Positions 26,432 to 62,702 of a stretch of DNA of 64,000 nucleotides are shown here, in pieces. This DNA is from Octopus vulgaris (Eukaryota), in NCBI GenBank assembly GCA_951406725.2, contig OX597822.1, positions 77,810,001 through 77,874,000 of the forward strand, in the 5' to 3' direction. Each line of letters opens with the position of its first letter. Position 1 is the stretch's first letter. Position numbers and translations under genes: made by a program. The notes below the pieces were generated by a model. That model was not told the DNA's origin and did not search any database. It saw nothing but the letters and a program-made list of their open reading frames with translations.

Positions 26432-26466
26432 GTTTCCGAAGAAGAGATATGCTCGAAACGTAAAAC
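26432..26466 (+). ncRNA. Minimal type I hammerhead-ribozyme-like motif in a Penelope-like terminal repeat
   Basis: GTTT-CCGAAGA-A-GAG atatg CTC-GAAAC-GTA-AAAC. Stem I GTTT/AAAC. Confidence 0.55.
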
Positions 26467-26689
26467 TACTACTCTTTTCCTTCGCTGAGCGTCTTAATAC
26501 ATTGATTGTGCTACATCAACACGTTCGTTCGTTTTTTTTTTTTTTTTTTGGCTTAAAGCAAAGATGTGTACTTGTCCCATATCTTTTTTCTTCTATGCTT
26601 TGCAGCTATGTTCCACGACATTCCAGCTACCCTGGTGTAGATAGAGATCAAGTATCGCTTCGATGGGGAATTCTACAATCTGTCCAGGT

Positions 26690-27050
26690 TTAAAATCACA
26701 AAGCCTAATCAATAACACTTGAGTTATTGACCTGTACTACGTCGATAACAATTCCTCGCTTGCTCATTCGCCTGAAGGAGTGGGTTGATAAATTCAAAAA
26801 CGCATATGATCGCTTCAGTCTGACGACCGGCATCTAATTGATCAAAATACCTATTCAGCTTGCCCCAAACTTAATTTTTTTAAGGTTTCAAAATCCCTAA
26901 TCTCCCACCCAAATATCATTGTAACAAAGGAAAAACTTTCATGTTCACGGAAGCATCCTTTCCAGTGAACGCAATTCAGAGAAAGACGTCTAGAAAACGT
27001 TTCCAGCTGGCGATGTCGTATTTGGAAAACTCTTTCATCGTGTCTTCGCA
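26690..27050 (+). mobile_element. Probable Penelope-like RT relic
   Basis: YYVDN (RYVDD-like) and SHPNIIVTKE (HPxIxFTxE-like). Heavily decayed. Confidence 0.45.
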
Positions 27051-27879
27051 AACCAGAACCTGATATTACAAATCATTATTTGCACACATATATCTATACA
27101 ATAATAAAGAAAACTGCTTATTAATTAGTTAAGTGTATGTAACTCTTAATTATTTAAAGTCCACAATCTGGAAAATACTTCAAAATTCCAGTTTTAATGC
27201 AGGTTTTGTAGCAAAACATGTTTTTCACGATTATTTTATTAATGAAGATTTCAGTCGCATAATTCAGTCAGTAAACTAATCTTAATTCACTGCGATTTTT
27301 AACATCTTACTCCTTTTGTCTCTCTTCTCTTTCTCTCATTTGTTTATCACTTCTGTTGCCGTTAGCATTTCTTCTTTCTGTCCCTTTTCTCTTCATCGTC
27401 TTTTCACCGTCTTGCTCCCCATCTTCTTTATCTTCTCTCTCCCTCCCTCTCATTCACTCACTATCTTCTCCCTCTCATTCATTCACTCTTTCACTCACTC
27501 AATCTTCATTTGTATCTCTTCCCCTGTTAATTCATTTAATACTTTTCATCTTTCCTCGTACACTATTACTTTCACTTCTTTCTTTGCAACGCTCTCTCTT
27601 TCTACCATATCTACTCACCATTCACTTGTTTTTATTGAAAATAAGTGATTACTAGGATTTTCTTTGAGTTAGTTTGAGAAAATTTGTGAACAATTTTTAC
27701 GTTTTATCTTCTTATATCAAAACTCCATAGGAAGTTTTCAATTCAAGTTTCATTCCGTTCCACATAAACTTGTAGCCCTTGATTCTTTAAATAACGAAAC
27801 CTTAGGGTTATTTTCTGTGCCTGCATCGATTTTACCTTTATTGTTCAGTAATATGATGATTCCTTTTAACATATTTCGT

Positions 27880-28075
27880 TTCACATTCTGGCACAAGACC
27901 AGCAATTGCGGGAAAGGAGGTAAATCGATTGCATTGACCCCTTGGCACTTATTTTACCAGCCCTGAAACGATGAAAGACAAAGTTGACCTCGGCAAAATT
28001 TGAACTCAAAACGTAAAGACGAAATGTCGCTAAGCATTTTGCCCAGTGCTTTAACAATTCTGCCGACTCGCCACT
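27880..28075 (-). mobile_element. Degenerate Nin-like SINE
   Basis: Match to the 1-285 family. Confidence 0.75.
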
Positions 28076-28129
28076 CTAATAATGTTTAGCATATTAATTA
28101 CGATACAATTTATAATACATATACTGTGT

Positions 28130-28740
28130 TATTTGCTTCCACATTAGAATTTTTCAATTCAACGTGGATCGTCCAAAATAATATGCGACTTACACAGAAT
28201 GGTTGGCAGGAAAGACAACAGCAAAGGAACAGAAAGGCAACTGCATCAGAGAAAATCAGGGTAAGATATCTGAAGGAAATGTCTGACTATGCACGTAGGC
28301 GTAGAGTATATAATTCTGTTACTGCTACAGATGACAGACTAGCTAACGTATCTTAAGAGAATAAATTACTTCAAAACAATACACTGAGCCAGCTTTCAGT
28401 CGGTGAATATTCAGGTGCCAATTAATAATCATTACCAAATGGACAGGATATGCAGACAATTATCTCATGCAAATAGTAGTGAGCAGCAAACAGAAACAGC
28501 ATTGAAAGCAGGTTGTTAAGAGACCAGACTGAATATGTAAAAATCGTTCAAAAGTCTGGTAAAAGATTATCAATCCATGCCAATTTCGAGGACCCTCAAG
28601 AACAGGCTGTCCTGTCTGTTATACACTCACATAAAGCAAAGATTCTACACGTTTGCTACCATTGCAAGGCTTACTGATGGCCTGCTGAATCGAAATATCT
28701 ATGTCCTTTTGGGAGAAGACCAGACGGTGGGCTGTGTTTC
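28130..28740 (+). mobile_element. Possible Penelope-like linker / GIY-YIG-proximal relic
   Basis: VKIVQKSGKRL and GCPVC-like peptides. Weak. Confidence 0.3.
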
Positions 28741-29368
28741 TGTTACTATGCATTACATACATGCATACATACATACATACATACACACACACATTTGTGT
28801 TTTCATCTAAAATGGAAACGAACACTTCATCTGGATCGGCTCGAAAAATTTAGATGTTAAGATATTTTCCTTAACATGAAACCAATGGTAGACTTAATTT
28901 TATCCACCAATGTCATGTTAAGCACTCATTCTCGTCGATCGACATTTACATCGCTCTCTCTATACACACACACACACACACACACACACACACACACACA
29001 CACACACACACACACACACACACACACACACACGCGCGTGTGTGTTAGGTCTTATATCTTGGCCATAGGTCTTATATCATTATTTCGGGTTGACTCAAGA
29101 TTTATAAAATTAAGTTAACGGAAATTGTAAAAGCCCATCTAATTGACTCGACTTGGAATTCAAAGGTTCTGCCTTCAGTTCTGCTTGTGAATCACATTAA
29201 GTGACAAACAAACAAACACATACAAACACACGGACGGACTTGTACCCGTCGGTTTTGGTGCAAATATTATAACATGCAAAAAAAAAAAAAAACCCTAAAA
29301 ACGAAGACGAAGTAAATAGAAAACAGAGTGTAATAGGTTTACGCTCTGAAAAAAATAAAAGGAAAAGC

Positions 29369-59857: not shown

Positions 59858-60160
59858 CAGCATATATATATACATATATACATAGAAGTAAATATATGGT
59901 ACAACGAAGTACCGATATTTACTGGAAAATAGCGAACGTAATAAATACGACGCTAATGTATAGCTTCACGGGCTATTCTTTACTGGAAAGCAATACTCTC
60001 GTATTGCATTACTATTTTTATATACATATATATATACACACACACAGATATATATATGCATGTATAAAAAAGTATATATAAGGATATTTTTTCACTACTA
60101 TATCAGTGGTTTAGCATGCATAAAATACCATAAAGGTAAATAATTATTAATTAAGAATGA

Positions 60161-60308
60161 GGGGTACTGGGGTTAGTGCCAGCATGCTAAAATAGCAGTA
60201 AGAAATGACTTAAGACCACAAATTTTCACTAATACACAAGTGAAAATATGTGGTCTTAAGTCGTTCCTTACTGTTATTTTAGCATGTTGGCACTATCCCC
60301 AGTACTCC
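60161..60308. repeat. 70-bp-arm inverted repeat with 8-nt loop
   Basis: Arms 60161-60230 and 60239-60308. Confidence 0.9.
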
Positions 60309-60359
60309 TAATTATTAATTGATATGTATGTATGTATATATGTATTCTCATGTATATAG

Positions 60360-60650
60360 TAACATATCAAGATATGCCCATATATATTTAATTGATAAAC
60401 TTCTGGAAAGTTTTACACATTTTTACAGTTCCAGTGATGGATTGGATATATAGTCTTCGAATTAGCTTTCTCCTTTTTGGTTTTGAGAAGCTTAATTCCT
60501 CAAGATTGGTATTTAGGCAGTGTGTTACATATTCCAGTGTGCCAATAATTACAGGTATAAACCTGAACTTGTAATCTGGATAGAGCAACTACAGATTTCT
60601 CTTTTTCACTGATCTTCAGCTTTATGTTAACATCCGCTGGTCAGCTAATT
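60360..60650 (-). mobile_element. Non-LTR (probably RLE-type) 3' fragment, same family as 3285-3620
   Basis: LYPDYKFRFIPVIIGTLEYVTHCLNTNLEEL... Confidence 0.7.
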
Positions 60651-62009
60651 TGTTTGTATGTATGTATGTATGTATGTATGTATGTATGTATGTATGTATG
60701 TATGTATGTATGTATCGGGGAGTAGATACAAATGAACGGGTTTCATAAAGTGTTCCATTTTGTCAATAAATAGTTAAAAAATATATATATTAAATGCTGC
60801 AATATATGTATAGACACAATGCAATATGTTATCTGAATATAGTAGTTATTGTCAAGACAGTGTTGATATTGTGGAAAAGTGCTAATTTCGTTACTTTTAT
60901 ACCTGTATAGCTACTAGAAACTGTATGATCCGCGTACGCACAAATATTAATACAATTATCCGTATTAGGTTCCAGGTTTTTAGATGTCAAACTTTTATAG
61001 GTGTAATCCGCAATTGTCACTGATGGATGAGAAATTTCATAATAACGATAATGATAATAATAATAGTTCTTATTATTGTTGCTGTGATTTTATATATATA
61101 TATATATATATATATATATATATATATATATGTACATATATGTATATATATGTACATATATGTATATATATGTATATGTATATATATATATATATATATA
61201 TATATATACATATATATATATATATATATATATGCATATACATACATATATGTGTGTGTGTGCATGTGTGTGTGTGTGTGCATGTGTGTGTGTAATGAAA
61301 TCAGCACTCCTCGACATTAAACTTCTTATATATTTCACTAGTAATATCGTATTGACTTACTTTATATTAGCGAATATATGCCCGGGCATTAACATGCATT
61401 AATAGCGGCTCTTAAAGTTGTGCGATATAAAACTGAGATAATAACCGTTGCTAGCCTGAATAATGACATTGCAATTATATATTACGTTAATTATAGAGCA
61501 ATTACATTCCAGTGGACATCTAGGGGCTGATCTACAGTTACATGTACGTGATTAATCATAGAATGTCTTAGAGAGCTCAGTAAACTCATGCGTTCCCTGC
61601 AGCTCTTCAAGTTGCTTTTCCCCATATTGCTTATGCTTTTACCATTATCATTATTTTGTTTCATTTCAATGTTAGTCTCACTAGAGATATTTTTGCAACA
61701 ATTTTTGTTATAGTTGTTGCGGGTAGAACTCGGATATCCTGCGACAAGGAACGATCAACAAAAAAAAAACAAAAAAAAAACACTCCATCCAGGGAGAGGC
61801 TTTAATCTGCCAAACGACAAGTCTCAACGGCAAGAAACAATTAGTAGGTCTTGTTTTTATACAGTCTACATTAAATGATATATATATATATATATATATA
61901 TATATATATATATATATATATATATATATATCATCAGTAGAACATATATCCGAAAAAGAAGCATGCTTTAACCGTTCGAGTAGTAAAGTATTTTCAGAAA
62001 GTTAATTGT

Positions 62010-62400
62010 ATGTCCAGTCATAGAGTGACCAATAGTCTCGCATCCATAAAGCGCTTAGCATTATTAGACGGTCCGCCAGTCTCCAGTGACCGCGGGGGCC
62101 TATATAACCTCTTTGCTTCGAAGGTTTTGAGGTCGTTGATTTTGGGCGGAAACCTCCTAGATTTGATCCCATACATGTTGGCTTCTGAGGATGGCGTGGT
62201 TTGGACATAGAAATATGTCTTTACATCTCATCCGCCTTCTGTGGTCGATCATCCTCTCGAGAAGCATTTTGGTGTAAAGCTCGTTAGACGGTGTTGGTAT
62301 ATTTTTCTGTCGAACAACTGACGTATATAGCTCCATATTATCCGAGAGACGTGGCTTTCGTGATTTTGTAGATGTGTGCAGCCGGTGGTACAGCTGCCTG
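62010..62400 (-). mobile_element. Probable RTE LINE relic
   Basis: Decayed resemblance to the RTE C-terminus (GH..RLADRL). Frameshifted. Confidence 0.35.
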
Positions 62401-62664
62401 TGGCCACTAGACTCTGACCGGACATATCATTAACTTCCCATAAATATGTGTGTGTGCATGTGTGTATGTGTATGTATGCATGTATGTATTTATGTAGGTA
62501 GGTAGATAGATAGGTACAAACACACACACATACATACATACGTGCACACATATATACAGTGCAAAATTTTTTTAAAATTCAAAGCCGAGGTAAAAAAAAC
62601 AAGAAAAGACGAAAAGCAAACAGAGTGCATTATATTTATGCCCAGGAAAAAATAGAAAGTAAAG

Positions 62665-62702
62665 TCTTTTACGTTTCGAGTATAGGCTCTTCATCAGATA
62701 GA
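62665..62702 (-). ncRNA. Hammerhead-like motif with canonical CUGAUGA core
   Basis: Minus strand TCTAT-CTGATGA-A-GAG cctata CTC-GAAAC-GTA-AAAGA. Confidence 0.6.

What the first reader, a model, noticed from the sequence alone, without database searches (positions are those of the whole stretch)
26432..62702. Dispersed family of six minimal hammerhead-like ribozymes sharing an extra A after the core
Seen: six motifs at 26432(+), 29369(-), 49762(+), 52758(-), 53080(+) and 62665(-) follow stemI-C(T/C)GANGA-A-[GAG..CTC]-GAAAC-GT(A/C)-stemI'. Two have mutated cores and 29369 has a decayed stem II. Stem I covaries between copies (GTTT/AAAC vs CTTT/AAAG), loop II differs, and stem III is the loopless palindrome ACGT. 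Known: Penelope-like elements carry minimal type I hammerheads that self-cleave as dimers through palindromic stem III. Inference: these are short non-autonomous Penelope-LTR or retrozyme-like elements at about 1 per 10 kb here. The A between A9 and the G10.1-C11.1 pair in every copy may define a lineage-specific variant.
Basis: partly seen in the sequence, partly recalled or inferred. Interest (0 to 1): 0.7.

Follow-up and report, generated by a model that had tools for sequence, protein, structure and literature searches.

The report
Penelope hammerhead stubs with altered cores
The six motifs are real and match the tail ends of an abundant Penelope-type jumping gene, whose known small self-cutting-RNA motif normally has the 'extra A'; the unusual point is that the two commonest families carry a changed catalytic letter in tens of thousands of copies, which likely weakens cutting, although the rest of the motif still appears to be under selection.

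Summary
The six motifs exist (plus a seventh, decayed one) and are not chance. They are 150-210-nt, likely 5'-truncated ends of Neptune-type Penelope-like elements (PLEs). The same ends close RT+GIY-YIG elements elsewhere in this genome, two of them in full pLTR-ORF-pLTR form (4.4 and 6.2 kb units). They are not tandem retrozymes. The extra A is not lineage-specific: it is the published PLE consensus (CUGANGAH; PMC4209133). Of 39,448 exact genomic matches, 20,544 carry A6U and 10,047 carry U4C. All 62 copies picked by their endonuclease gene have U6. Along that lineage only the two free hammerhead positions (N7, H17) changed, against 0 of 30 constrained ones. U6 is predicted to add a helix that masks the ACGU dimer palindrome. 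Cleavage was not tested, and a genomic cut-site footprint test was inconclusive. None of the six window copies has both a canonical core and intact stems. This scan had already noted A6U on other DNA (e1-9897094, e1-10278439). Verdict: known element class, modestly interesting core variant.

The parts
19922..20036 (-). Seventh, strongly decayed 3'-end copy (old layer); core CTGTAGA (U6), stem II lost
   Evidence: blastn and nhmmer E 8e-5; 75% to L216/L217
26364..26554 (+). Truncated pLTR end, family-C-like; ribozyme motif 26432-26466, core CCGAAGA (U4C), extra A, 3-bp stem II, H17=A at 26462
   Evidence: 72-78% to L005, L095, L218
29289..29448 (-). Truncated pLTR end, old layer; motif 29404-29369, canonical core CTGAAGA, stem II collapsed, stem I mismatched, H17=C at 29373
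49691..49872 (+). Truncated pLTR end, older family-A subfamily; motif 49762-49797, core CTGTTGA (A6U, the family state), H17=A at 49793; followed by (CA)n(TA)n
   Evidence: 79% over 143 nt to the pLTR of full element L069, E 6e-24; tree
52664..52825 (-). Truncated pLTR end, family B; motif 52792-52758, core CCGACGA (U4C, the family state), H17=C at 52762; 3' end abuts (TA)n
   Evidence: 80% over 148 nt to the pLTR of full element L204, E 2e-31; 93-94% to L106/L127
53050..53205 (+). Truncated pLTR end, family A (CTGTAGA subfamily); motif 53080-53115, core CTATAGA = family A6U plus a copy-specific G5A; flanked by (TA)n on both sides; independent of the divergent family-B copy next to it
   Evidence: 83.7% over 172 nt to the L069 pLTR, E 5e-45; 94-96% to L090/L234
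62595..62805 (-). Truncated pLTR end, old layer; motif 62701-62666, canonical core CTGATGA, 3-bp stem II, A.A mismatch in stem I, H17=A at 62670
   Evidence: 73-80% to its nearest genomic relatives

Best explanation
The motifs match the hammerhead-bearing 3' ends (pseudo-LTRs) of Neptune-type Penelope-like retrotransposons, likely left as short dead stubs when the element's reverse transcriptase stopped early after inserting into (TA)n microsatellites; in the two dominant families the ribozyme core is changed (A6U, U4C), which likely makes it a weak, protein- or dimer-dependent cutter whose fold is still selected. Shown: the same ends close RT+GIY-YIG elements with a CX4CxxC linker; two partial-tandem pLTR-ORF-pLTR copies exist; the counts of core variants; only N7 and H17 change along the A6U lineage. 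Inferred: target-primed copying from a site near the pLTR end with frequent 5' truncation; selection acting on the master RNA, not on the stubs; reduced cleavage. Predicted: U6 pairs with A15.1 in a U4.G16.2/G5-C15.2/U6-A15.1 helix that hides the ACGU palindrome, so the monomer would rest in an 'off' hairpin until the element's protein or a second pLTR refolds it. The window stubs themselves are probably inert.
For: RT+EN frames of 680-853 aa end upstream of the family-A motif in 12 of 12 fetched long-frame loci. Pfam RVT_1 E 1e-7 to 3e-6; GIY-YIG only weak, E 0.08-0.1 in family A and 0.006 in family B. L069: 4,384-nt unit, both pLTRs CTGTCGA. L204: 6,164-nt unit, pLTRs 96% alike, upstream one CCGACGA. 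EN upstream in only 3 of 71 family-A and 0 of 33 family-B sampled copies, microsatellite just downstream in 60 of 71 and 33 of 33, as expected for truncated insertions. Counts: 20,544 A6U, 10,047 U4C, 39,448 any core. Family-A copies without U6 number 602; the first 100 split C 71, A 19, G 10, as expected for sporadic mutation. In 62 copies found by EN protein, U6 is 62/62; 0 of 30 constrained positions are polymorphic against 51 of 225 flank positions (P 8e-4). On a 57-row tree, constrained positions have 0 internal changes against 11.3 expected (P 1e-5) or 6.1 from the downstream flank alone (P 0.002), while N7 and H17 change, H17 only between A and U. Fold predictions: ACG mostly paired in the youngest U6U7 copy, mostly open in A6 copies of the same family. 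Literature: CUGA single mutants have low activity (PMC9901934, passages); natural A6C cleaves slowly and prefers Mn (PMC3088659 passages, PMC7151607 part 1); a PLE hammerhead cut only with protein and was dispensable for insertion in vitro (PMC11167929 parts 1-2).
Against: No cleavage data and no raw RNA reads. The 4-nt loop II is also unchanged in family A, which catalysis does not require, so the conservation could reflect protein binding or promoter DNA. Copy-specific changes are also somewhat fewer in the motif than in the flanks (0.9 vs 1.4 per site), which shrinks the depletion. Against the downstream flank alone the polymorphism test is weak (P 0.035). The predicted masking is partial for N7=A or C, and canonical family-B/C copies also have the palindrome masked by other pairings. 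The hammerhead-shaped dimer is 9-20 kcal/mol less stable than the dimer MFE for the seven copies with a stem II, canonical ones included. A family-B subgroup has a U.U mismatch in stem I as well as U4C, which looks like decay. No EN or RT hit lies in the window, and ORF-bearing parents were shown only for families A and B.
Confidence: 0.72

Rival explanations
1. The ribozyme is catalytically dead in families A and B. The sequence is kept only as a hairpin or DNA signal (RNP binding, promoter, reverse-transcription signal), and the changes at N7 and H17 are coincidence or hairpin tuning.
For: Position-6 and position-4 changes lower activity in tested hammerheads. Hammerhead mutants did not affect PLE insertion in vitro. 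Naiad PLEs proliferate without canonical hammerheads. U6 adds a helix to the MFE rod. Loop II is also invariant. No pile-up of 5' junctions after the cut site in family A: 11, 10 and 16 of 37 loci in +1..10, +11..20 and +21..30 (read by eye).
Against: The only two positions that vary at subfamily level are the two that catalysis leaves free; a plain hairpin would not single these out, nor keep the unpaired C3, U16.1 and A9. H17 moved by transversion A to U and never to G at subfamily level. Family B shows a 2.5-fold excess of 5' junctions at +1..+9 (22 of 39, P 0.003).
Confidence: 0.3
2. The short units are non-autonomous retrozymes or SINE-like elements that spread as their own about 190-nt RNAs or circles.
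For: Most copies are 150-210 nt and lack any ORF. Retrozymes are proposed to derive from pLTRs (bioRxiv 10.64898/2026.07.22.740005, part 1 and passages).
Against: 5' ends are scattered, including inside and 3' of the ribozyme. No same-family tandem pair among 107 copies. Identical ends sit on ORF-bearing elements. The motif is the minimal PLE type, not the canonical type I of retrozymes (PMC7229834, passages).
Confidence: 0.06
3. The extra A after A9 is a lineage-specific ribozyme variant.
For: A is at that position in all six copies; only 640 genomic matches have another letter there, against about 39,000 with A.
Against: An unpaired nucleotide there, usually A, appears across metazoan PLE hammerheads and in their consensus CUGANGAH (PMC4209133 text and Fig. 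S3 alignment).
Confidence: 0.01

Closest known systems
Minimal type I hammerheads (min-HHR) in pLTRs of metazoan Penelope-like elements (Cervera and de la Pena 2014, PMC4209133)
   Same: U-rich leader, short stem I, extra nucleotide between 9 and 10.1, G10.1-C11.1, loopless palindromic C15.2-G16.2, mostly solitary copies from truncated PLEs, a few in tandem about one element apart, and some inverted pairs.
   Different: The dominant cores are CUGUNGA (A6U) and CCGANGA (U4C), not CUGANGA. The core variant described in the parts of that paper read here is U3-A8. Stem II is short (4 bp).
Neptune/Nematis-type EN+ Penelope-like elements (as defined in PMC8557442, passages)
   Same: One ORF with RT then GIY-YIG, a CX2-5CxxC linker (here CX4CxxC), partial-tandem pLTR-ORF-pLTR layout, and microsatellite insertion bias.
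   Different: Neptune versus Nematis was not resolved (no reference tree). The 3' UTR is long and low-complexity (about 0.8 kb in A, about 2.9 kb in B).
Natural hammerhead core variants A6C (phage Bcep176) and U4C (viroid) (PMC3088659, PMC7151607)
   Same: The same positions are altered; both known variants keep low activity.
   Different: The known cases are rare single sequences in canonical ribozymes. Here the change is fixed in a proliferating retrotransposon lineage with more than 20,000 copies, and the letter is U6, which is untested in the papers read.
Animal non-LTR retrozymes (PMC7229834)
   Same: Short, type I hammerhead-bearing, dispersed in an animal genome.
   Different: No tandem arrays, a minimal rather than canonical ribozyme, variable 5' ends, and ORF-bearing parents.

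Membership tests
PLE minimal hammerhead (min-HHR) | Type I layout with loopless or tiny palindromic helix III | tested here: met
   GAAA-CG-UH in 6 of 6
PLE minimal hammerhead (min-HHR) | Unpaired nucleotide between A9 and G10.1, and a G10.1-C11.1 pair | tested here: met
   6 of 6; published consensus
PLE minimal hammerhead (min-HHR) | Core CUGANGA | tested here: not met
   Met in 2 of 6 window copies only; 30,591 of 39,448 genomic matches are A6U or U4C
PLE minimal hammerhead (min-HHR) | Located in the pLTR of a PLE | tested here: met
   Families A and B: L069, L204, L061-L072. Not shown for the family-C-like and old-layer copies (26432, 29369, 62665, 19922) beyond sequence similarity
PLE minimal hammerhead (min-HHR) | Self-cleavage after NUH as a dimer or with protein help | not testable with these tools
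   Only contigs were available; the junction footprint was inconclusive
EN+ Penelope-like element (Neptune/Nematis type) | RT followed by a C-terminal GIY-YIG endonuclease in one ORF | tested here: met
   Pfam RVT_1 E to 1e-7; GIY-YIG E 0.006-0.1, below the curated cut-off, with a YIGQT motif visible; elements lie outside the window
EN+ Penelope-like element (Neptune/Nematis type) | CX2-5CxxC linker between RT and EN | tested here: met
   CX4CxxC in families A and B; definition from PMC8557442 passage
EN+ Penelope-like element (Neptune/Nematis type) | Partial-tandem pLTRs, 5'-truncated and inverted copies, microsatellite targets | tested here: met
   L069, L204; six distinct inverted pairs within 700 nt among 107 copies; microsatellite flanks
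Neptune clade specifically | RT phylogeny with reference Neptune and Nematis elements | not tested
   No reference sequences were fetched
Non-LTR retrozyme | Head-to-tail tandem repeats of 150-450 nt, each with a hammerhead | tested here: not met
   0 same-family tandem pairs within 700 nt among 107 copies; the one tandem pair mixes two families
Non-LTR retrozyme | Abundant small circular RNA | not testable with these tools
   No raw RNA reads were offered

The most novel reading that the evidence does not exclude
Two Penelope lineages in one genome independently rewired the hammerhead core (A6U, U4C) into a self-inhibited switch. The changed core pairs with and hides the dimerisation palindrome, so cutting would happen only when the element's own protein (or Mn) refolds it. 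Such a natural protein-gated ribozyme would have outcompeted the canonical form by tens of thousands of copies, while selection kept every other catalytic nucleotide.
Probability: 0.2. Interest if true: 0.7.

Novelty: new variant of a known kind. Interest (0 to 1): 0.4.

Why it matters
Why PLEs carry hammerheads is open: they cut slowly, one needs protein and was dispensable in vitro (PMC11167929), and some clades lack them (PMC8557442). This genome offers a natural experiment: recently amplified lineages with a damaged-looking core, canonical relatives, and a ladder of subfamilies in which only the catalytically free positions move. A few short RNAs can test whether cutting or only the fold is selected. 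Descriptor searches that demand CUGANGA would miss at least three quarters of these motifs here (30,591 of 39,448). The extra A itself matters little: it is the known norm.

Tried and rejected
Rfam scan of the window: the 150 listed of 320 matches were microsatellite-driven miRNA and snoRNA models with no hammerhead family; 170 lower rows were not shown. The repeat finder was swamped by microsatellites. tblastn for PLE RT/EN in the window found none. No RNA holder was listed on record, and only contigs were available, so expression and cut ends were not assessed. Contigs of runs X18, X19, X20 (three organism labels) and X1 list other letters at N7 and H17 but none at U6. The same tool listed no variant at family-B position 4 or H17, where variants exist, so this is only a weak hint that U6 is shared. 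Cut-site footprint test, tallied by eye from the first 100 rows of each search: 5' junctions are 5-7-fold rarer inside the ribozyme than just 3' of it in both families (28 and 30 loci). Only family B shows an excess over sequence further downstream, and neither shows a sharp peak at +1. Polymerase stalling at the hairpin base or TA microhomology explain this equally well, so it is inconclusive. The idea that canonical-looking family-A copies mark an A6 master was rejected; A6 is inferred ancestral only from families B, C and some old-layer copies. The idea that 52758/53080 are one foldback insertion was rejected: they belong to different families. In the tree the 'C_C6' labels are a parsing slip for CTGAAGA cores and were ignored. 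Row L190 was misaligned and dropped, so 63 became 62; include it and one search does not. Lunse et al. (PLE hammerhead dimers) is not held; only its title was seen in a reference list, and it may describe such core variants. Supplement file 1 of PMC4209133 could not be searched, and file 2 was read only in part 2 of 3.
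Full report
Observation. A hammerhead descriptor finds 2 in the window and none in 300 shuffles. Each motif is the middle of a 150-210-nt repeat: a pyrimidine tract, the ribozyme, a conserved downstream block, then usually a microsatellite. Four cores are non-canonical (U4C at 26432 and 52758, A6U at 49762, A6U plus G5A at 53080). The two canonical cores sit in copies with broken stems: stem II in 29369, and an A.A mismatch in stem I in 62665. 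The genome is 2.8 Gb and microsatellite-rich. It is probably an octopus; this rests on recalled repeat content and on earlier scan notes, and was not tested.

The extra A. Cervera and de la Pena 2014 (PMC4209133; main text parts 1-2 of 4 and part 2 of 3 of supplementary file 2 read) describe exactly this architecture in metazoan PLE pseudo-LTRs. [quoted passage not shown] The claim of a lineage-specific variant therefore falls. In this genome the letter is A almost always (640 matches with another letter).

What the copies are. A pattern with the canonical core gave 1,392 exact matches with H17=A/C (control 0). Two of the 30 fetched loci had an endonuclease remnant about 0.7 kb upstream. Searching with it gave 150 scored hits of 7,385 candidates, some in frames up to 853 aa. 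Twelve long ones were fetched: all carry RT plus GIY-YIG with a CX4CxxC linker and end in the same 3' repeat as window copies 49762 and 53080. L069 is a pLTR-ORF-pLTR unit of 4,384 nt with frameshifts; window 53051-53213 matches its pLTR at 83.7%. L204 is the same for the 52758 family, with a 6,164-nt unit and a protein 60-70% identical to family A's. In a sample of 111 copies anchored without regard to core, 3 of 71 family-A and 0 of 33 family-B copies with room had EN upstream, and most ended in a microsatellite. No same-family tandem pair occurred among 107 copies. The linker and microsatellite bias fit Neptune/Nematis PLEs as defined in PMC8557442 (passages). The window copies are thus best read as 5'-truncated PLE insertions; this is shown for families A and B and inferred for the older and family-C-like copies.

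The unexpected part. With core positions 4-7 left free there are 39,448 exact matches (control 2). Of these, 20,544 are CUGUNGA and 10,047 CCGANGA. Family-A loops without U6 number 602, split like random mutation (first 100: C 71, A 19, G 10), so U6 is the master state and not decay. A tree built from flanks only separates A from B/C, puts most C4 copies in one group apart from most U4 copies (weak support), and orders family A as a ladder whose N7 takes all four letters (FastTree, few well-supported branches). To avoid selecting on the ribozyme, 81 loci were picked by EN protein. Sixty-three distinct downstream ends were aligned (14 loci had none within reach and the rest were duplicates), and one misaligned row was dropped. 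In the 62 left, U6 is fixed and only N7 (U39, C14, A7, G2) and H17 (A37, U25) vary. None of 30 constrained positions is polymorphic, against 51 of 225 flank positions (P 8e-4; downstream flank alone 11 of 89, P 0.035). On a 57-row EN+flank tree there are 0 internal changes at constrained positions against 11.3 or 6.1 expected. Against this, loop II is also invariant, and tip changes are lower in the motif too (0.9 vs 1.4 per site).

Likely working. Published data say changes in CUGA lower cleavage: low activity for single mutants (PMC9901934, passages); A6C below 0.1 per min and Mn-preferring (PMC3088659 passages; PMC7151607 part 1 of 4); U4C weak in vitro but sufficient for a viroid. No measurement of A6U was seen. 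ViennaRNA predicts that U6 adds a U4.G16.2/G5-C15.2/U6-A15.1 helix that hides the ACGU palindrome, fully when N7=U and partly otherwise, whereas A6 copies of the same family fold open. Canonical B/C copies are also predicted misfolded, so masking is not unique to U6. A lizard PLE hammerhead cleaved only with the element's protein and was not needed for insertion in vitro (PMC11167929, parts 1-2 of 4). I therefore favour a weak, assisted ribozyme whose fold and remaining catalytic letters are still selected in the master RNA, with the stubs inert. A dead but structurally useful hairpin is the main rival.

Footprint test. Following earlier scan notes, I looked for insertions starting at the cut site. 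Junctions drop 5-7-fold inside the ribozyme in both families. They are 2.5-fold enriched at +1..+9 in family B (22 of 39, P 0.003) and not enriched in family A (11, 10 and 16 of 37 per ten bases), with no sharp +1 peak (tallies by eye from the first 100 rows). Stalling at a hairpin or TA microhomology can give the same picture, so the test is inconclusive.

Novelty. The element class, ribozyme type and extra nucleotide are known. Fixed A6U or U4C cores in PLEs were not found in the library searches: hammerhead with A6U/U4C/A6C; CUGUNGA-type strings, 20 of 34 papers listed; hammerhead, Penelope and octopus. Lunse et al. could not be read, and most subscription papers are absent. I reached the A6U reading before consulting the scan's notes (stated). 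Those notes show that A6U had been noted in this genome and in another; they are unchecked AI notes and not evidence. Other papers seen: bioRxiv 10.64898/2026.07.22.740005 (part 1 of 5 and passages), PMC6765202 and PMC7229834 (passages). De la Pena and Flores 2001 was seen only as cited in PMC4209133.

Verdict. Observation confirmed, interpretation partly supported, the proposed novelty refuted, and a different modest novelty found. New variant of a known kind; interest 0.4.

Noticed in passing
window 9640-10518 (-): Fragment of a LINE reverse transcriptase C-terminus (Pfam zf-RVT, E 2e-7).
   Followed up: partly
window 41178-41534 (+): Mariner-type transposase fragment (Pfam HTH_48, E 1e-19). 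Other frames at 33046-33591, 41945-42508 and 42663-43010 look like decayed transposase pieces; of these 33046 and 42663 were scanned and gave no Pfam hit.
   Followed up: partly
window 60179-60290: Near-perfect 112-nt inverted repeat (seen through a spurious mir-2513 match); possibly a MITE or a foldback end.
   Followed up: no
window about 49900-50120, 16719-16940, 17189-17406, 1278-1695, 31638-31871, 54932-55079, 15477-15637, 22474-22631: At least eight copies of an abundant SINE-like repeat, one inserted in the microsatellite right after copy 49762; its identity as an octopus SINE is recalled, not tested.
   Followed up: no
window 33933-34274 (-): Short frame with a poly-Gly run and a Cys-containing stretch that could be a host exon; no Pfam hit.
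   Followed up: partly
window 36490-36948 (-): 152-aa frame that resembles a Helitron fragment (recalled); no Pfam hit.
   Followed up: partly
L204:260-6790 and L019:1519-1760: PLE ends stack in each other's terminal (TA)n: a family-A end directly precedes the family-B pLTR in L204, and two different family-B ends are adjacent in L019.
   Followed up: partly
L204, L028, L019, L022, L082, L150, L157, L160: A family-B subgroup has GUC at the cut site and a U.U mismatch in stem I (GUUU/AUAC), mostly with U4C: a further step of ribozyme change in an ORF-bearing lineage.
   Followed up: no
L036, L041, L050, L057, L059: Some family-A 3' ends carry a direct duplication of about 30 nt near the end, perhaps the PLE 'tail' from two reverse-transcription starts.
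   Followed up: no
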